A stretch of DNA of 64,000 nt. Origin: a virus. The position numbers and the translations under genes are program-made. Below are positions 32,540 through 39,184 of this stretch, one piece after another. The notes beneath the pieces are model-generated. The model saw only the letters and a list, made by a program, of their open reading frames with translations, was not told the DNA's origin and ran no database searches. Every line of letters begins with the position of its first letter. Positions within the stretch are counted from its first letter, which is position 1. The DNA is taken from the IMG/VR virus record IMGVR_UViG_3300044977_000094, positions 96,001-160,000 of that record; one strand, given 5' to 3'.

Positions 32540-33430
32540 TCAGCCCTTCGGGACCTGCAGGCCGTCCCAGGACTCCTTCCCCGGCGGCCACTTCAGGGCG
32601 TCGCCGGTCCAGCCGAGGTTGTGGCGCCGCGAGAACTCCGCCTGCCACGCCTCGTACGAGTTCACGTCCCCGGTCCCGATGACGTCCTTGCCCAGACTCG
32701 ACCGGTACTTGTCACAGCCCTCCGCGACCAGCCGCGCATGCATCCGGCCCACCACGGGCGACACCCGGCCCATCGTGAACCACGCCGCGCCCGGAAACGG
32801 CTCATACGACGGGGCCGGGGCGGGCTTCGGCGCCGGAGGCTTCGGAACCTTCGCCGACGCCCACGCCCGCAACGCAGCCGCGCTAGCCGCCGCCGACACA
32901 TCCTGATCCACCCCACCAGCAACCGCCCACTGATGGAACATCCACGGATGCTCAATCCCCGGCTCACCAGCAGGCAGACCCGTCGTCGCGATCCACAGGA
33001 AATCCCCGCAGTCCGACGTCGTATCCACGTTCAACCAGTAGTCCTTGTTGCAGTACAAGCCCGTCTGGTGCTGCGGCTGCTTGCCCCGCACATACGCCAA
33101 CCACGCGCCCTTGAACACAGCCTGCGCCGGCTTCGGCACCGCGAGGTTCGCCGCGTCGTAGCCCTCCCAGTCCAGACACAACACCTCACCCGCCGTCGGC
33201 TGCGCCACCGACAGGAAGTGATCCGCCTCCGCCGCCGGCGAGTTCGCCATATCCGGGTAGTGATACAGCCCCACAACCAGACCGGCCGCCGCGGCGTGCG
33301 CGCGCTGCTGCTGCCACAGCGGATTGACGTAGGTCAGGCCCTGCGTGACCTTGATGAAGGCAAACGACAGGCCCGACGTGCTCGGGGTGGGCGACTGGTA
33401 CGACGCCCAGTCCTGGCCGTTGACGGTCAT
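32540..33430 (-). CDS. Endolysin: GH25 muramidase plus C-terminal peptidoglycan-binding domain
   Basis: GQDWASYQ; FAFIKVTQG; LDWE (DxE); C-terminal YEPFPGAAWF...RLVAEGC. Confidence 0.92.
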   Translation of the reverse strand: MTVNGQDWASYQSPTPSTSGLSFAFIKVTQGLTYVNPLWQQQRAHAAAAGLVVGLYHYPDMANSPAAEADHFLSVAQPTAGEVLCLDWEGYDAANLAVPKPAQAVFKGAWLAYVRGKQPQHQTGLYCNKDYWLNVDTTSDCGDFLWIATTGLPAGEPGIEHPWMFHQWAVAGGVDQDVSAAASAAALRAWASAKVPKPPAPKPAPAPSYEPFPGAAWFTMGRVSPVVGRMHARLVAEGCDKYRSSLGKDVIGTGDVNSYEAWQAEFSRRHNLGWTGDALKWPPGKESWDGLQVPKG

Positions 33431-33442
33431 GGTGCGCTCCTG

Positions 33443-33841
33443 TCAGACCGCGGCGGGCGGTGCGGGGATCGGCGCCGGCCCCGGTGCCGGCTGCGGGACG
33501 AGAGACGCCGTCGGAGTCACGTGGATGCGCAGGACCAGCGACAGCACGGCCACGACGACAGCGTTCAGCGAGCTGACCTCCCCGGTCGTGACGTGAGGCA
33601 CACCGAAGGCCATCAGGACCGTGGCCACGGCCGACAGCGCACCGGTCAGCGCCGCCACCGGGAACGGGCGCACGCTCACCGCCGCGACAAGCGCCAGGAC
33701 CGCGGTGGTCACCGCCTCCAGCGCGCCGGTCTGGCCAGCCGTGAGACTGAAGCCGAGGCCCACGACGAGGGCCAGCAGGGACTGCACCAGGCCGGTGATC
33801 AGCACCGGCTCAGTTCGGATGGTGTTGACGATTCTGCTCAT
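33443..33841 (-). CDS. Holin-like membrane protein (internally duplicated, about 4 TM)
   Basis: EPVL motif, hydrophobic helices and C-terminal VTP; directly upstream of the endolysin. Confidence 0.75.
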   Translation of the reverse strand: MSRIVNTIRTEPVLITGLVQSLLALVVGLGFSLTAGQTGALEAVTTAVLALVAAVSVRPFPVAALTGALSAVATVLMAFGVPHVTTGEVSSLNAVVVAVLSLVLRIHVTPTASLVPQPAPGPAPIPAPPAAV

Positions 33842-33854
33842 GGTGAGGGTCCCT

Positions 33855-34685
33855 TCAGGCCGCGAGGATGAGCTGCTTGTAGTCCGCATAGGCGCCGAGG
33901 AGCGCCAGCGTGGACAGGTGGATCCGGTACGAGCCGTGATCGCCCCACGACTCCGACCAGGAGTTACGGACGCGCACGTGGGACTTGTCGCCGTCGATCC
34001 GGCCGAGCAACCCGGTCGTCAGGCGCTCCACGGCGGTGATGCAGGTCTCGTGACCGCCGGCCACGCCGGAGGCGATCGCCCGCTCCAGCGCCGCGATACC
34101 GCCGTCGCCGTCGACGAATCCCAGGGAGTCGGGCTCCATCCACGCCTCGAACCAGGGCAGGCCCACCATGACGGTGCCCCCCTGGAGCAACGAGACGACG
34201 TTGCGTATCCCGGAGGCGGTCTTGTGACCTGAGGCCAGGCCCTTCTTCTCCAGCTCCGTGCACACGTACAGGCCGGTGCTGCCGCAGTCGGTCGGCGGCC
34301 ACTCCTGTGCCGGGTCGCCGGTCTGGTCGGTGACGTCGTGGTACAGCTTGATCGCGAACTTCTCGCCGCCGACGCTGTCAGTGGTCGACAGGCCGATCTG
34401 CGGGAGCGCCGCGGCTCCATGGAGGGCGGCGTACCGCTCTGCCACGTGTGCGGTGCCGGAGTTGCAGGTGCAGGATCCGAGCGCGTCGACCTTCGCCGCT
34501 CCGGGGACCAGGGCCGAGGTGTCGATGCCCTGTGCCAGGAGATCCTCCTGGTCCAGGACCGGGATCGGGGACTCGTGGTCGACCTCGCGCAGCGTCTCGC
34601 CGCGGTGCAGGTGCATGCGGTCCAGGCGCATCGGCATCGGTGCCGCGTGCCGGCCGAACTTGGTGGGGGTGATGCCTTCGTACAT
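33855..34685 (-). CDS. Papain-like (C1 family) cysteine peptidase
   Basis: DQ...GSCT (catalytic Cys); GGHE (His); VRNSWSESWGDHG (Asn). Confidence 0.88.
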   Translation of the reverse strand: MYEGITPTKFGRHAAPMPMRLDRMHLHRGETLREVDHESPIPVLDQEDLLAQGIDTSALVPGAAKVDALGSCTCNSGTAHVAERYAALHGAAALPQIGLSTTDSVGGEKFAIKLYHDVTDQTGDPAQEWPPTDCGSTGLYVCTELEKKGLASGHKTASGIRNVVSLLQGGTVMVGLPWFEAWMEPDSLGFVDGDGGIAALERAIASGVAGGHETCITAVERLTTGLLGRIDGDKSHVRVRNSWSESWGDHGSYRIHLSTLALLGAYADYKQLILAA

Positions 34686-34707
34686 GGGCCCCTCCGGGCA
34701 TGGGAAA

Positions 34708-34726
34708 GCCCCCGACTCGCGGGGGC
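34708..34726 (-). terminator. Terminator-like hairpin between the permease-like gene and the peptidase
   Basis: GCCCCCG-CGAGT-CGGGGGC followed by TTT on the minus strand. Confidence 0.5.
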
Positions 34727-34748
34727 GTGAGTGGTGGAGCGGAGGTGC

Positions 34749-35207
34749 TCAGGCGTCTGCGGGATCCACATGAACGGAGGCCGCGACGTTCACCTGTACA
34801 GGTGCGGTCTGCTGCTCGATGACGGCGAGGCGCTCGGTCAGCGCGGTCAGCTGCTCGGCCAGGGATGCGAGGGTGGCCAGCTCCTGGCGCTCGTCGGCGA
34901 GGCTCTCGTCGGTGCTGGCCCCGATGTGCTGCAGGAGCAGTTCGAGGCTGCGCTCCTGCCGGTTGTTGCTCGCCGCGATCAGGAAGCCGATGAACAGCTC
35001 CAGGATGGTCGTCACGGTGTTCAGCGGGAAGTTCCAGCTGTTCGACGTGAACCAGACCGGCAGGAAGCTGGACTTGGCGATGACCGGGCCAAGCAGCGTC
35101 CACGCCACCAGCAGCACGAACCAGATCCCGATGTTCTGCGGTGTGCCGATGGCGTACGAGACGCGGTCGGCGGCGTCGACGAAGCGGTCGATCAGGCGAC
35201 GGCTCAT
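34749..35207 (-). CDS. Low-affinity iron permease (Fet4-like) / DUF1003-like membrane protein
   Basis: F..AADRVSYAIGTP...W..LGP...SW.F.LNTVTTI..LFIGFLI...NNR resembles the family core W..INTGTTI..FL.VFLIQ..QNR. Confidence 0.7.
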   Translation of the reverse strand: MSRRLIDRFVDAADRVSYAIGTPQNIGIWFVLLVAWTLLGPVIAKSSFLPVWFTSNSWNFPLNTVTTILELFIGFLIAASNNRQERSLELLLQHIGASTDESLADERQELATLASLAEQLTALTERLAVIEQQTAPVQVNVAASVHVDPADA

Positions 35208-35641
35208 GCAGCACTCCCGGGCAGGAACAGGCCGCACAGCAGCACGGCGATGAAAATCGCGGCCAGGACCGCGCCGGTCTCGACCAGAGCGCGCAGTGGA
35301 CGCCGATTGGGTCGCATCAGCGCCACCGCGACGCCGATCCCGATGCAGATGACCACCGAGGCGCCGATCGCCAGCGGGCCCGTATCGAACGCGTACGGCA
35401 GCGCCGGCAGCGCCGCCCCGAGGCCCGTGGCGAGGCCCATCACGCAGGACGCGCCGAAGCCGTTGTCGCTCTCGCTGAGCCACTCCCCGCCCGCCATCGA
35501 CAAGGCAGAGCTGATCGCACCCGACACAGCCGCCGGGAAGATCAGATCGCGGTGGCCCAACAGGTAGAGCACGACGCCGAGCAGCGACATCATGCCGTCG
35601 GACAGCCCGAATATCGCCGGGCGAACGAGCCGCTGCTTCAA
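35204..35641 (-). CDS. Minimal VIT1/CCC1-family Fe2+/Mn2+ transporter-like protein
   Basis: IFGLSDG (TM1 Asp), ALSMAGGEWLS (TM2 Met), GAALPALPY; about 5 TM; TTG start overlapping the upstream stop. Confidence 0.8.
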   Translation of the reverse strand: MKQRLVRPAIFGLSDGMMSLLGVVLYLLGHRDLIFPAAVSGAISSALSMAGGEWLSESDNGFGASCVMGLATGLGAALPALPYAFDTGPLAIGASVVICIGIGVAVALMRPNRRPLRALVETGAVLAAIFIAVLLCGLFLPGSAA

Positions 35642-36090
35642 GAGATCAGACCCCTGACGTACCTGGACGCCTCGTAGTCCGACGCCGCGGCTACGTGCAC
35701 GCCTCCGTGGCCGCGGTGGCAGGCCCGGCACAGCCACTGCAGGTTGTCCGCGGACTCGACCCACGCACCGACCTGGTTCGGGTCGCTGATGCCGGGATAG
35801 TCCCGCTCCAGCCACGCCAGGTCCACGCCGTTCTGCAGGCTGAACTCGACGTGTGAGTGGTGCAGTTCAAGCGGCGCGCTCAGGTCGCACTCGGAGAAGT
35901 CGCCGCGGGCCACGCCCATGGCGCACTTGGCGGTGGCCTTGGTGCGGCGCCGGTACGCCTCGAAGTCGCGGTAGTGCGGATCGTCCTGCCGCGCCGGGTG
36001 CTCCGGGTAGTGCATGACGTAGTGGTGGGCCTGGGCCTGCTCGTGCGCAGCGACCTGGTGTCCAGGGTGCCCCGACAGGTCGTCGGTCAC
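35638..36090 (-). CDS. His-rich HNH-like metal-binding protein
   Basis: C...C...LELHH...NLQWLCRACH...GVH; His-rich N-terminus. Confidence 0.7.
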   Translation of the reverse strand: MTDDLSGHPGHQVAAHEQAQAHHYVMHYPEHPARQDDPHYRDFEAYRRRTKATAKCAMGVARGDFSECDLSAPLELHHSHVEFSLQNGVDLAWLERDYPGISDPNQVGAWVESADNLQWLCRACHRGHGGVHVAAASDYEASRYVRGLIS

Positions 36091-36512
36091 GGAGTCCTCC
36101 GGTTGCGAGGGGCGCGCGTGCGGTGCGCGCCGGGAGTGGAAGGGCCGTCGTCGGGCGGATCGTTCTCGTGCTTGATCTGGATGCGGAGGATGAGCACGAC
36201 GCGCCAGACGATGACGATGGGCACGAGCCCGAAGGAGATGACGGAGAACCACGCGAACAGGGGCGTATCAGCCGAGCTGACGCCCAGCGCGTGGTGGATG
36301 ACGGAGGGCAGCAGCGTCAGCGCCAGTGCGCTGTCCATCGCCAAGGCGTTGCGCCCTATGGCCGAGCGCCACCACGGGGCGACCGCCCACAGGACGAGGA
36401 TGGCCCCGACGGCGGCACAGAATGTGGCGATGACCTCGATGGTCGTGGTGTGGACGATGACGTCCAGGGTCCCCGGGCTCACGGTCCCCTCCCGAATGGT
36501 GACGCTGGTCAA
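36087..36512 (-). CDS. Putative phage holin-like membrane protein (3 TM)
   Basis: PWWRSAIGR motif between TM helices. Confidence 0.7.
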   Translation of the reverse strand: MTSVTIREGTVSPGTLDVIVHTTTIEVIATFCAAVGAILVLWAVAPWWRSAIGRNALAMDSALALTLLPSVIHHALGVSSADTPLFAWFSVISFGLVPIVIVWRVVLILRIQIKHENDPPDDGPSTPGAHRTRAPRNRRTP

Positions 36513-36754
36513 CGTGGCGGAAGACCGAACAACTCGCCGATTGACTCGCTGAAGTGGTTACGGCGCCGGATACGGCGCAAGTGCTCGGCGGTCGTCGATA
36601 CCTGCACACGCAGGCCCTCGGCCTCGCGGAGAGCCGACGACGCCCGGACCATCGCCGCCGAGGCGTCGCGCTGGCCCTCCGTCACCCTGCGCTCCAAGCA
36701 CACGCCCTGCGGCCTACGAAGCGGGTGGCGGAGGTAGTGGACCCAGCGGTGCAC
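36509..36754 (-). CDS. Small basic lysis-region protein
   Basis: LRRIRRRNHFSESI motif seen in actinophage lysis cassettes. Confidence 0.7.
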   Translation of the reverse strand: MHRWVHYLRHPLRRPQGVCLERRVTEGQRDASAAMVRASSALREAEGLRVQVSTTAEHLRRIRRRNHFSESIGELFGLPPR

Positions 36755-37064
36755 CGGCCGTCACCTCCCGCCCAGATGGCGAAGGGAGCGCGGAGAGCAG
36801 ATGGACGGCAGTGCGTGACAGCTCCAGGAGCTCCATCGTCGACTCCTGCGACTGTGCTCGGGCCGCTGCCTCGCGTTCGGCCACCACGCGCCAGGTGTCG
36901 CGCTCGGCTGAGATCTCTCTTATCCGCAGCTCGCGGTCCTCGCGGAGGTCTTCGACCTGGCGGCGGGGCACGAGCCGGCCGGTGAGGATGAGCAGGATGA
37001 CCACCGCCAGGATCGTGGCGGCGCTGAGCTGGAGGAAACCGGCTTGGTCCCAGAGTTCTTCCAC
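36714..37064 (-). CDS. Single-TM plus coiled-coil lysis-region protein
   Basis: ILLILTGRLVPR...ERDTWR pattern. Confidence 0.75.
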   Translation of the reverse strand: MEELWDQAGFLQLSAATILAVVILLILTGRLVPRRQVEDLREDRELRIREISAERDTWRVVAEREAAARAQSQESTMELLELSRTAVHLLSALPSPSGREVTAGAPLGPLPPPPAS

Positions 37065-37090
37065 GGGCGGTCCCTCTCGCGGCTGTTGGG

Positions 37091-39184
37091 CTATTTGATG
37101 CGGGTTAGTCGCACCCAGGAGCCGGCGACGAGGCTGGCGGTGTTGCTGCTGGTGCCTGTCGCGAAAGTGACGGTCAGGCTCCCCGCGGTGCTGCTCGTGA
37201 CGAGGAGTCCTCGCAGGTGGGCGTGTTTGTTGGCGCCGGTCCCGGACCAGGTGTCGGTGCCGGTGATGGTGGCGACGTAGTTCCCGGCGGCGTCGCCCCA
37301 CTGCATGGTCGCGCCCGAGGGGCCGGTCCAGGAGTGGACGAAGTTCACCCCGGACGGCGTTTCGATGATCAGGGCCGCGTCCAGCAGGTAGGTGGCGCTG
37401 GCCTCAACTGCGATGACCAGGTGCGTGGAGGCAGTCTGGCCGGTGGAGGTGGTGGTCTCGGTGGCGGCCGACACGGCGTAGGCGTCGACCAGGCTGCGCA
37501 CGTTGCCGGACGTGTCGCGGAGTTTGAGTGGCGCCGCGGTCCCCGACTGAGAGTAGACGACGCCGCCGGCCGTGGGGTTCGTCGTCGGCACGGTCGTGGC
37601 GTCCGCGACCTGGATTTCGCCGACGCCGTTGTCGCCCAGTGCGGTCGCGGATCCGATCAGGGCGTTCTTCGAGGTGTACCAGACGCCCGCGGCGGCGCGC
37701 CCGTAGGCCGTGTCGCGGGCGGCGGAGCCAGAGCCGAGGTTGACAGCTCCGTCGCAGGTCAGGCGGTAGGTGTCGAAGCTGAGCCCACTGACCCCCGCAC
37801 CGTGGGCGATGCTCGTCGTGTCGTGGCCGGTGGTGCCGAACATGCGCTGCCCGGTGGAACCACCGGTTACGGCGATCATGGTGCCGGAGCTGGCGGTGAA
37901 GTTCACGCCCGTCGCGAAGTTGACGACACCGCTGCTGGCCTCGATGACGCCCGCGGGCAGGTTCGTGAACCAGTTGCTGCTCGACGAGCCGGAGCCTTGG
38001 AAGGCTGCCGCGTCGACCAGGACGGCCTGGCCGACGGTGCCGATGTTGATGGACTCCTGGACGCCGGCGCTGCCGCTGGTCACGATGTTGCTGCCGAGCC
38101 AGCAGCCGAGGATCTTGCCTTGGGCGGTTCCGGACCAGTTGATGTCGTAGTTCGTGCCGCTGGCCCCGGCGCCGTTCAGGTTGAACAGGCAGTCGTAGAT
38201 GTGGACGGGCTTGCCGGTGGACGCGACGGTGATCCCGTGGGTCTGGTTGTTGATCAGACGGGAGGTGGCGATGTGGACCTGGTAGGCGCCGCCGGTGATC
38301 TGCAGGCCGGGCGAGCCCTGCTGGATGACGCCGCCTTGGATCTGCACGTTCTGCGGGGAGCCGTTGGGGCCGTCCTCGATCAGCACGCACGGGCCCGCGT
38401 GTGGCCCCAGGGCGTCGAGGTTGGTCACGAAAGCGGCCGCGCAGTCGCCCTTGATGTGCACGGACGAGCCGGTGCCGTTCGACGTCCAGGCGATGGCGTT
38501 CTCGACCAGGACGTCCCAGGAGTCCTCGATGCGGATTGTGTCCAGGTTCGCGCTGGCGCCGCTGGTGACGCCGCCTCCGTAGAACTGGACGTCGGTGACC
38601 TGCGAGTTCATCGCGAAGCCCTGGGCGGTGTTGCCAAGGAAGTGGATGCCGCCCGCGCAGGAGTTCCCGTAGAGGTGGGAGATCTGCGTGCCCAGCGGGT
38701 TGCTGCTCCCGGAGGCGGAGGTGGCGGCGACTTCGATGGCCCAGCCGTTGACGTACCAGAACTGGCAGTTCTCGATCTTGTTGCGGCGTACGCCGGTGAT
38801 CTCGATGGCGTTGCATGCCGGGTTGCTGGTGGTGGTCGAGCTCGCCCCGGACACCGACAAGTTCCGCACCTGGCAGTTGTAGCCGGTGATCTCGATTGCT
38901 GCGGTGCCGGAGAAGCTGGACCCGATCAGGAGCTTCGTGTTCTCCGCACCGGCGCCCGTCAGCACGGTCGCGGGCGTCGTCAGCGTCAGCGGGCCGCTGT
39001 TCAGCAGGTAGCTGGCGGTCGTGGCCGGGAGGTACACGACGCCGCCGTTGGAGCCCAGCTGGTTGATCGCGGCCTGGATCGCGGCGGTGTCGTCGGTGAC
39101 GCCGTCGCCCTTGGCGCCGTAGGTGACCGCGGAGACCCAGCCCAGGGCCGTGGCGATGGTCGTACCGAACGCGCTGGCGGTCAC
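37091..39184 (-). CDS. Tailspike/fibre with right-handed beta-helix (pectate-lyase-3-like) domain
   Basis: YGAKGDGVTDDTAAIQAAI...GGVVYLP; Asn/Gly/Ser-rich repeats. Confidence 0.88.
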   Translation of the reverse strand: MTASAFGTTIATALGWVSAVTYGAKGDGVTDDTAAIQAAINQLGSNGGVVYLPATTASYLLNSGPLTLTTPATVLTGAGAENTKLLIGSSFSGTAAIEITGYNCQVRNLSVSGASSTTTSNPACNAIEITGVRRNKIENCQFWYVNGWAIEVAATSASGSSNPLGTQISHLYGNSCAGGIHFLGNTAQGFAMNSQVTDVQFYGGGVTSGASANLDTIRIEDSWDVLVENAIAWTSNGTGSSVHIKGDCAAAFVTNLDALGPHAGPCVLIEDGPNGSPQNVQIQGGVIQQGSPGLQITGGAYQVHIATSRLINNQTHGITVASTGKPVHIYDCLFNLNGAGASGTNYDINWSGTAQGKILGCWLGSNIVTSGSAGVQESINIGTVGQAVLVDAAAFQGSGSSSSNWFTNLPAGVIEASSGVVNFATGVNFTASSGTMIAVTGGSTGQRMFGTTGHDTTSIAHGAGVSGLSFDTYRLTCDGAVNLGSGSAARDTAYGRAAAGVWYTSKNALIGSATALGDNGVGEIQVADATTVPTTNPTAGGVVYSQSGTAAPLKLRDTSGNVRSLVDAYAVSAATETTTSTGQTASTHLVIAVEASATYLLDAALIIETPSGVNFVHSWTGPSGATMQWGDAAGNYVATITGTDTWSGTGANKHAHLRGLLVTSSTAGSLTVTFATGTSSNTASLVAGSWVRLTRIK

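What the first reader, a model, noticed from the sequence alone, without database searches (positions are those of the whole stretch)
34749..36090. Candidate new system: an iron/manganese-transporter-like module wired into the lysis cassette
Seen: three genes chained by 4-nt start/stop overlaps (GTGA, TTGA, ATGA) to each other and to the upstream holin-like gene. They encode a His-rich HNH-like protein, a 145-aa VIT1/CCC1-like protein and a 152-aa low-affinity iron permease/DUF1003-like protein. The VIT1-like protein keeps the membrane metal ligands (Asp in GLSDG, Met in LSMAGGE) but goes straight from TM2 to TM3, lacking the cytosolic metal-binding domain. Known: VIT1/CCC1 proteins export Fe2+/Mn2+ from the cytosol in exchange for H+, and Fet4-like proteins import Fe2+. 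I do not know of the pair as a described phage lysis component. Inference: late-expressed metal or proton flux that tunes lysis timing, controls Fenton damage to progeny DNA, or represents transporters co-opted as holin/antiholin.
Basis: partly seen in the sequence, partly recalled or inferred. Interest (0 to 1): 0.82.

Follow-up and report, generated by a model that had tools for sequence, protein, structure and literature searches.

The report
Mini iron-transporter gene in phage lysis cassette
Soil actinomycete phages carry a stripped-down relative of the plant and yeast iron/manganese transporter VIT1, usually beside a swappable small membrane protein and just before the cell-wall-cutting enzyme; no paper we could search describes this, and its role is untested.

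Summary
On the minus strand, 4-nt overlaps chain a Phage_holin_2 gene, a weak HNH-like gene, a 145-aa VIT1-like gene and a 152-aa Iron_permease-like gene. A papain-like peptidase, a second holin and a GH25 endolysin follow.

- **VIT1-like protein:** it passes the Pfam threshold and folds like EgVIT1. It lacks the cytosolic metal-binding domain. It keeps the transport Asp and Met, which are invariant in 146 distinct relatives.
- **Distribution:** the clade is almost confined to phage contigs. It has no match in 50,697 GenBank phage records and turned up in 2 of about 185,000 species genomes.
- **Context:** in 19-21 of 27 long loci an endolysin or peptidase lies within 3 kb downstream. In 42 of 52 loci a small membrane protein follows, drawn from four interchangeable classes.
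- **HNH gene:** it is not a fixed member. The record's second phage copy has a PLD-like gene in that slot.

My best reading is a working minimal cation/proton transporter expressed with the lysis genes, not the hole-former itself. Its purpose is unresolved.

This scan noted the same thing earlier on other DNA (e1-5346223, e1-5347007) and on copy A of this record.

The parts
35204..35641 (-). Minimal VIT1/CCC1-like five-helix membrane protein (145 aa, TTG start), the constant element of the module
   Evidence: PF01988 40.2 bits. AlphaFold2 mean pLDDT 89. Foldseek top hits 6iu3/6iu4, probability 1.00, TM-score 0.73-0.74. Asp15 and Met49 invariant in 146 distinct relatives.
34749..35207 (-). Two-TM protein with a long C-terminal helix, Iron_permease (PF04120)/DUF1003-superfamily partner, class p1
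   Evidence: PF04120 32.5 bits. 13 relatives share an invariant NFPLN..TT..E..IG...NR motif. hhalign to the DUF1003-type partners gives probability 86%, E 5e-6. In the model TM2 runs into an ~85-residue helix, pLDDT 70.6.
35638..36090 (-). His-rich HNH-like protein (150 aa), a variable occupant of the slot between holin and VIT1-like gene
   Evidence: Weak HNH hits (Pfam E 0.056, phrog_8048 E 0.0057). Copy A carries a PLDc_2 gene in this slot. Relatives sit at varying positions in L009, L011, L022, L067 and L069.
36087..36512 (-). Phage_holin_2 family holin candidate, coupled upstream by a 4-nt overlap
   Evidence: PF23778 45 bits against a cut-off of 32. Found upstream of the VIT1-like gene in about 10 non-redundant loci.
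34708..34726 (-). 7-bp G+C hairpin in the 63-nt gap after the partner gene; not a convincing terminator
   Evidence: Fold of 34670-34765 has z-score -0.66 against shuffles. The terminator scan does not report it.
33855..34685 (-). Papain-like peptidase, probable second lytic enzyme
   Evidence: phrog_16701 peptidase E 3e-16. Weak Peptidase_C1 hit.
33443..33889 (-). Second holin candidate
   Evidence: phrog_9752 holin E 3.5e-13.
32540..33430 (-). GH25 endolysin
   Evidence: PF01183 88.7 bits; phrog_291 endolysin E 3.8e-27.
36509..36754 (-). DUF7620 small protein at the head of the cassette
   Evidence: PF24596 49.7 bits.
36714..37301 (-). phrog_4565 protein after the tail-fibre gene; one hydrophobic stretch is visible in its translation (read by eye)
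   Evidence: phrog_4565 E 2.8e-11. Recurs upstream of holin_2 in related loci.

Best explanation
The 145-aa protein is a working, minimal VIT1/CCC1-type cation transporter of a phage-specific clade. It is made late in infection from the same transcript as the lysis genes.

Shown:
- It has the five-helix VIT1 membrane core.
- It keeps the two residues that bind the metal in the translocation path (TM1 Asp, TM2 Met).
- It has Gly at the proton-relay Glu position and no cytosolic metal-binding domain. That is the pattern of plant VTL iron transporters, which are active without the domain.
- The gene after it encodes a small membrane protein. In this window it is a two-TM, long-helix protein of the Iron_permease/DUF1003 superfamily.
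- In host actinomycetes, DUF1003 sits next to a gene for the soluble MgtE sensor domains.

Inferred:
- At the end of infection the transporter moves Fe2+/Mn2+ or another divalent cation out of the cytoplasm, probably against protons.
- This changes membrane energisation and envelope cation load just before or while the true holins fire.
- It therefore tunes lysis rather than making the holes.
- The neighbouring small membrane protein acts in the same step but is replaceable, so a tight specific complex is unlikely.
For: Family and fold:
- Pfam VIT1 hit above threshold.
- AlphaFold2 pLDDT 89; EgVIT1 is the only clear PDB match.
- The alignment to 6iu3 pairs Asp15/Met49 with the transport Asp/Met and Gly41 with Glu72, and skips the metal-binding domain.
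- Plant VTLs share exactly these features and transport iron (PMC10794610).

Constraint:
- Asp15 is present in 145 of 145 and Met49 in 146 of 146 distinct relatives.
- The VIT1-like protein is the most conserved gene of the cassette. Against L008, L009 and L016 it is 56-60% identical, versus 28-37% for holin_2 and 28% for GH25.

Distribution:
- About 198 clusters at 50% identity score E <= 1e-10, nearly all 140-160 aa.
- Only 2 close hits in about 185,000 species genomes, one in a stretch that IMG/VR lists as viral (L024 = L011).
- Hosts already have 1-3 full-length VIT1 genes.

Context:
- An endolysin or peptidase lies within 3 kb downstream in 19-21 of 27 long non-redundant loci.
- Start/stop overlaps are present and no internal promoter or terminator signal was found.
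- Canonical holin genes are present in the same cassette.

Partner:
- 42 of 52 loci have a small membrane protein next door.
- Cellular DUF1003 is flanked by an MgtE_N+CBS gene in 5 of 5 loci checked.
Against: - No experiment or expression data exist for any member.
- The Pfam match covers only TM1-TM2, and the sequence match to EgVIT1 alone is weak (E 0.64).
- Some members lie outside lysis cassettes: L005 among small early-type genes, L023/L093 beside a ubiquitin-like gene, L135 after capsid-type genes. A role tied to lysis is therefore not universal.
- Phage morons often sit beside lysis genes, so position alone is weak evidence.
- The direction, substrate and proton coupling of transport are inferred from distant relatives.
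Confidence: 0.45

Rival explanations
1. Metal-tolerance moron. The transporter protects the lysogen or the infected cell from Fe2+/Mn2+ overload in acidic, reducing soils. It has no role in lysis and sits by the lysis genes only because that is a common insertion site for accessory genes.
For: - Transport residues are invariant.
- Distant members occur outside lysis cassettes.
- Relatives come from a Streptacidiphilus genome and a bog Actinomycetota MAG.
- Actinophage infection is reported to disturb host Fe/Mn homeostasis, including the host VIT gene (PMC10986025).
Against: - Hosts already carry 1-3 full-length VIT1 genes.
- The gene is translationally coupled inside the late operon, with no promoter or terminator of its own found.
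- An endolysin or peptidase follows in 19-21 of 27 loci.
Confidence: 0.25
2. True holin or holin/antiholin pair. The VIT1 core and the two-TM protein have been co-opted to form or gate the membrane lesions that release the endolysin.
For: - They are small membrane proteins directly before the endolysin.
- In L013 and L095 no multi-TM protein other than the VIT1-like one was seen between the tail-fibre gene and the endolysin.
- Partner swapping resembles the mosaic make-up of lysis cassettes.
- The two-TM plus coiled-coil build of the partner resembles class II holins (my own knowledge).
Against: - The window's cassette already has two holin-family genes.
- Neither protein matches a holin family in Pfam or PHROGs.
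- The VIT1-like protein evolves far more slowly than the neighbouring holin and keeps its metal ligands, which a generic hole-former would not need.
Confidence: 0.15
3. Another membrane function, such as superinfection exclusion, defence or counter-defence, that uses the transporter fold as a scaffold.
For: - Membrane proteins with variable neighbours in an accessory-gene hot spot.
- A nuclease-like gene (HNH or PLD) often sits next door.
Against: - No hit in the phage or defence-related searches that were run.
- Conserved placement with endolysins.
- Invariant transport residues.
Confidence: 0.1

Closest known systems
EgVIT1 (PDB 6IU3/6IU4), VIT1/CCC1 family PF01988
   Same: Five-helix membrane core: Foldseek probability 1.00, TM-score 0.73. 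TM1 Asp and TM2 Met are conserved.
   Different: No cytosolic three-helix metal-binding domain. Gly replaces the Glu72 proton relay. 145 aa instead of about 250. Encoded by phages.
Plant VIT1-like (VTL) transporters, e.g. MtVTL8 (PMC10794610)
   Same: They lack the metal-binding domain, keep Asp and Met, and have Gly at the Glu72 position. Iron transport has been shown for them.
   Different: Eukaryotic and longer, with one short cytosolic helix. No phylogenetic link was tested here, so the likeness may be convergent reduction.
Bacterial DUF1003 (PF06210) and Fet4-type Iron_permease (PF04120) proteins
   Same: Two TM helices with the shared LN...NRxxR motif. The window's protein passes the PF04120 threshold. 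The two partner classes are related by profile comparison.
   Different: Cellular DUF1003 is a near-universal actinomycete gene beside MgtE_N+CBS and Mrp genes. The phage forms sit beside the VIT1-like gene and endolysins instead. No function has been shown for the small bacterial forms.
Class II holins and pinholins (e.g. phage 21 S68, mycobacteriophage D29 gp11; from my own knowledge)
   Same: Small membrane proteins encoded next to the endolysin. The partner shares the two-TM plus C-terminal coiled-coil layout.
   Different: No sequence-family match. The VIT1-like protein has five TM helices and strongly conserved ion-binding residues. Separate holin genes are present.

Membership tests
VIT1/CCC1 (PF01988) | Profile HMM score above the curated threshold | tested here: met
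   40.2 bits against 28.1, but only profile positions 1-57.
VIT1/CCC1 (PF01988) | Five-helix membrane fold of EgVIT1 | tested here: met
   Model pLDDT 89. 6iu3/6iu4 are the top hits, probability 1.00, TM-score 0.73-0.74; the next hit has probability 0.47.
VIT1/CCC1 (PF01988) | TM1 Asp and TM2 Met of the translocation path | tested here: met
   Asp15 and Met49 align to them. They are invariant in 145 of 145 and 146 of 146 relatives.
VIT1/CCC1 (PF01988) | Cytosolic metal-binding domain between TM2 and TM3 | tested here: not met
   The alignment skips chain residues 68-139. The model has a 5-residue loop there. Plant VTLs also lack it.
VIT1/CCC1 (PF01988) | Glu72 proton/iron relay | tested here: not met
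   Gly41 at that position in 141 of 146 relatives. Same substitution as in VTLs.
VIT1/CCC1 (PF01988) | Fe2+/Mn2+ transport activity | not testable with these tools
   Needs yeast ccc1 complementation, liposome assay or ICP-MS.
Iron_permease (PF04120) / DUF1003 (PF06210) superfamily | Profile HMM score above threshold | tested here: met
   PF04120 32.5 bits against 25. There is no direct DUF1003 hit for the window's protein. The link to DUF1003-type partners comes from hhalign, probability 86%.
Iron_permease (PF04120) / DUF1003 (PF06210) superfamily | Iron or other cation permease activity | not testable with these tools
   Only indirect evidence: synteny of cellular DUF1003 with MgtE_N+CBS genes.
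Holin (functional class) | Match to a described holin family | tested here: not met
   No holin family in Pfam or PHROGs for the VIT1-like protein or the partners.
Holin (functional class) | Small membrane protein encoded beside the endolysin | tested here: met
   19-21 of 27 long loci.
Holin (functional class) | Forms lesions that release endolysin | not testable with these tools
   Needs a holin-complementation assay.
HNH endonuclease (PF01844) | Profile HMM score above threshold | tested here: not met
   14.1 bits against 21.4. phrog_8048 E 0.0057. No PDB sequence match. Cys/His motifs are visible in the sequence.

The most novel reading that the evidence does not exclude
Phages of soil actinomycetes use regulator-less cores of divalent-cation transporters as a new kind of lysis-timing device. 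The parts would be a minimal VIT1 and a two-TM DUF1003/Fet4-type protein that may form a channel. The device would drain the proton-motive force or load the envelope with metal ions, and so set when the true holins fire.
Probability: 0.2. Interest if true: 0.8.

Novelty: new variant of a known kind. Interest (0 to 1): 0.58.

Why it matters
- Lysis timing in phages of Gram-positive, mycelial soil bacteria is poorly understood, and their lysis cassettes are crowded with unexplained membrane proteins.
- This is a large, sharply conserved, phage-specific branch of a well-studied transporter family, so its function can be tested directly with existing VIT1 assays and point mutants.
- If it transports metal, it is a new type of viral accessory gene acting on host iron/manganese or membrane energy at the moment of lysis.
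- It would also be the smallest natural VIT1 transporter, useful for studying how the family works without its cytosolic domain.
- As a by-product, the synteny of cellular DUF1003 with MgtE sensor-domain genes gives a testable idea for a widespread protein family of unknown function.

Tried and rejected
- **Complex prediction:** two VIT1-like chains plus the partner gave 'no answer' (score 0.00, after failed tries). It is evidence neither for nor against binding.
- **GenBank phages:** blastn and tblastn against 50,697 records gave no match for the region, the VIT1-like protein or the window's partner. A DUF1003-type partner gave only 4 weak hits.
- **Fused forms:** a search for longer forms of the VIT1-like protein found none. 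This is weak evidence.
- **Partner structure:** the model has low confidence (pLDDT 70.6, pTM 0.31) and no Foldseek match. A faint sequence hit to the NavMs pore plus coiled coil (E 0.08) is at most a lead.
- **ESM Atlas:** the shape search for the VIT1-like model was uninformative.
- **Transcription signals:** the promoter/terminator scan and the fold of the gap after the partner gene gave no sign of a separate transcription unit.
- **NCBIfam:** only a weak hit to TIGR00267.
- **Fixed trio, rejected:** I considered a three-gene HNH-VIT-permease system and rejected it.
- **Cellular pairing, rejected:** I considered that VIT1 and DUF1003 are also paired in cells. No VIT-like gene lay beside 30 cellular DUF1003 genes.

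Full report
**1. What is there**

The window is bases 96001-160000 of a 175,260-bp IMG/VR virus record with 69% G+C. In 32.5-37.3 kb all genes lie on the minus strand. In order after the tail-fibre gene they are:
- a phrog_4565 protein;
- a DUF7620 protein;
- a Phage_holin_2 protein (36087-36512);
- an HNH-like protein (35638-36090);
- a VIT1-like protein (35204-35641);
- an Iron_permease-like protein (34749-35207);
- a papain-like peptidase (phrog_16701);
- a second holin (phrog_9752);
- a GH25 endolysin.

VIT1 (40.2 bits against 28.1) and Iron_permease (32.5 against 25) pass Pfam's thresholds. HNH does not (14.1 against 21.4).

**2. The record holds two phages**

A self-comparison shows two collinear genomes of about 88 kb each, 70-91% identical at DNA level: copy A at about 2-73 kb and copy B (the window) at about 90-164 kb.
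- Copy A has the same VIT1-like gene (76% protein identity) and partner gene (79%).
- dN/dS between the copies is 0.31 and 0.26, like the neighbouring lysis genes.
- Copy A carries a PLD-like gene (PLDc_2, E 5.5e-11) where copy B has the HNH-like gene. That slot is therefore variable.

**3. The VIT1-like protein**

- An AlphaFold2 model built on 86 relatives has mean pLDDT 89 and five helices.
- Foldseek finds only EgVIT1 (6iu3/6iu4) clearly: probability 1.00, TM-score 0.73-0.74 by the query. The next hit has probability 0.47.
- A profile alignment to the 6iu3 chain pairs residues 6-59 with chain 11-67 and residues 60-107 with chain 140-188. The ~70-residue cytosolic metal-binding domain is missing.
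- In that alignment Asp15 and Met49 fall on the Asp and Met of the translocation path, and Gly41 falls on Glu72.
- According to PMC10794610, Asp43 and Met80 are strictly conserved and essential. Plant VTL transporters lack the metal-binding domain, have Gly at the Glu72 position, and still transport iron.
- A domain-less VIT1 is therefore a known kind, and the phage protein has the same reduced pattern.
- In 146 distinct relatives Asp15 (145 of 145) and Met49 (146 of 146) never vary.

**4. Distribution**

- The word-indexed search found 131 clusters at 90% identity, all about 145 aa and mostly from soil metagenomes.
- The exhaustive profile search found 461 representatives at 50% identity with E <= 1e-3 and 198 with E <= 1e-10. 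Nearly all are 140-160 aa.
- One genome per species for about 185,000 species gave only two close hits. One is in Streptacidiphilus carbonis NBRC 100919, in the same stretch that IMG/VR lists as a viral contig (L011). The other is in a bog Actinomycetota MAG.
- No GenBank phage record matched, and no PHROG family matched.
- Cellular Actinomycetia have full-length VIT1: 39 of 41 genomes sampled, and three copies in S. carbonis.
- The phage clade aligns to one of these S. carbonis copies only over TM1-TM2, at 36% identity.
- The tallies include genomes flagged unpublished (G007, G030, G032, G036, G043). Only counts are used here. The five synteny loci checked came from other genomes.

**5. Context survey**

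I gathered 90 loci, which form 62 clusters at 90% identity.

Downstream lytic enzyme:
- Among 27 non-redundant loci with at least 2.5 kb downstream, 19 have a recognisable endolysin or peptidase within 3 kb on the same strand.
- The count is 21 if two sub-threshold matches (L017, L046) are included.
- The enzymes seen are GH25, PG_binding_1, an Rv2525c-like glycosidase, and a homologue of the window's peptidase.
- No lytic enzyme was recognised in L005 (small early-type genes), L015 (glycosyltransferases), L018, L023/L093 (a Multi_ubiq gene), L063 and L102.
- More distant family members also lie on phage-like contigs, but not always near lysis genes.

Neighbouring small membrane protein:
- The gene after the VIT1-like gene is usually a small membrane protein of one of four classes.
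  - p1: Iron_permease-type, as in this window.
  - p2: DUF1003-type.
  - p3: a third two-TM type.
  - p4: a small membrane protein with a Cys/His motif.
- 42 of 52 distinct genes with enough downstream DNA have one.
- p1 and p2 are related (hhalign probability 86%, E 5e-6). The p3 link is weak.
- On a tree of the VIT1-like proteins the classes are thoroughly mixed. For example, a p3 locus is sister to a p4 locus, and the p1 copies here are sister to a p2 prophage.
- Partners are therefore swapped often, which argues against a tight, co-evolving complex.
- A p1 gene also occurs without any VIT1-like gene (L034).

**6. The partner family in cells**

- DUF1003 is present in 77 of 81 Actinomycetia genomes sampled.
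- None of 30 cellular DUF1003 loci has a VIT1-like neighbour.
- In 5 of 5 loci checked, the upstream gene encodes MgtE_N plus CBS domains. These are the soluble sensor part of the MgtE magnesium channel, without its membrane part.
- In the three loci where the downstream gene was also scanned, it encodes an Mrp/ParA-type Fe-S carrier.
- This suggests, by inference only, that DUF1003 is the membrane half of a divalent-cation system.
- If so, both phage proteins come from cation-transport families and both lack the cytosolic regulatory parts of their cellular relatives.

**7. Weighing the readings**

Against a pure hole-forming role:
- The cassette has two holin-family genes of its own.
- Neither protein matches a holin family.
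- The VIT1-like protein is much more conserved than the holin and endolysin beside it: 56-60% against 28-37% and 28% for the same phage pairs.
- Its metal ligands are invariant.

For a link to lysis:
- The placement before the endolysin recurs across phages with different endolysin types.
- The genes are translationally coupled.
- No separate promoter or terminator signal was found.

Against an obligatory link to lysis:
- Some members lie outside lysis cassettes.
- Accessory genes are known to gather beside lysis genes.

My conclusion is that the protein most likely still moves cations and acts late, in step with lysis (confidence 0.45). A metal-tolerance accessory gene (0.25), a true holin role (0.15) and another membrane function (0.10) remain open.

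**8. The HNH-like gene**

- It has only weak family support.
- Relatives occur before the VIT1-like gene in L009, L022, L067 and L069, and after the partner in L011. In copy A a PLD-like gene takes its place.
- That pattern fits a site-specific mobile nuclease gene better than a fixed part of the module. This is inference.

**9. Literature and earlier notes**

- Full-text searches found no paper linking VIT1 or DUF1003 to phage lysis.
- One paper reports that actinophage WC1 infection lowers host VIT-family and other exporter transcripts and raises importer transcripts (PMC10986025). This shows metal balance matters during infection but does not bear on this gene.
- Earlier notes of this scan describe the same kind of gene on other DNA (e1-5346223, with a follow-up reaching a similar view; e1-5347007) and on copy A (e1-5680178, e1-5680193).
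- I reached the swappable-partner result from my own survey before reading them, and I checked the PLD claim myself.

**10. Limits**

- The complex prediction gave no answer.
- My gene calls in related loci rest on open frames, third-position G+C and a simple hydrophobicity scan.
- The survey is biased to relatives close enough for pattern-based retrieval.

Noticed in passing
whole record G000:C1 (window = 96001-160000): The 175-kb 'virus record' is two collinear, related ~88-kb phage genomes in tandem, 70-91% identical at DNA level. It could be two neighbouring prophages or an assembly join of two related phages.
   Followed up: partly
L002:1932-2498 (- strand; genome 37522-38088, copy A): Copy A has a 188-aa PLD-like gene (PLDc_2, E 5.5e-11) in the slot where the window has the HNH-like gene, between Phage_holin_2 and the VIT1-like gene.
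   Followed up: yes
L105, L108, L111, L112, L114 (cellular Actinomycetia loci): The near-universal actinomycete DUF1003 gene follows a gene for MgtE_N plus CBS domains without a membrane part in all five loci. In the three where the downstream gene was scanned (L105, L108, L114), it precedes an Mrp/ParA Fe-S carrier gene. This suggests DUF1003 is the membrane half of a split divalent-cation system.
   Followed up: partly
L026-L029 (Patescibacteria and Gammaproteobacteria MAG contigs): These bacteria carry tandem pairs of short (~160-170 aa) VIT1-like genes that match the phage profile end to end, so domain-less VIT1 forms also exist in cells. NCBIfam TIGR00267 (171 positions) may be a related short family.
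   Followed up: no
L005:7465-7824, L013:6441-6770, L071:5438-5800: A fourth class of small membrane protein follows the VIT1-like gene in at least 8 lineages. It has a conserved Cys/His motif (H.C....C.R.G.H ... C..H) and no Pfam or PHROG family.
   Followed up: partly
L023:6442-7023 (also L093): In one lineage the VIT1-like gene is followed by a Multi_ubiq (ubiquitin-like) gene instead of lysis genes.
   Followed up: no
window 33855-34685: A papain-like peptidase (phrog_16701) without a signal peptide sits between the partner gene and the second holin. It is conserved in copy A (82%), with relatives in L067 and L091. It is probably a second lytic enzyme.
   Followed up: partly
L034:5225-6780: A p1 (Iron_permease-type) partner gene occurs without any VIT1-like gene, in a five-gene operon of small proteins set between divergent structural genes. 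The partner can therefore stand alone.
   Followed up: no
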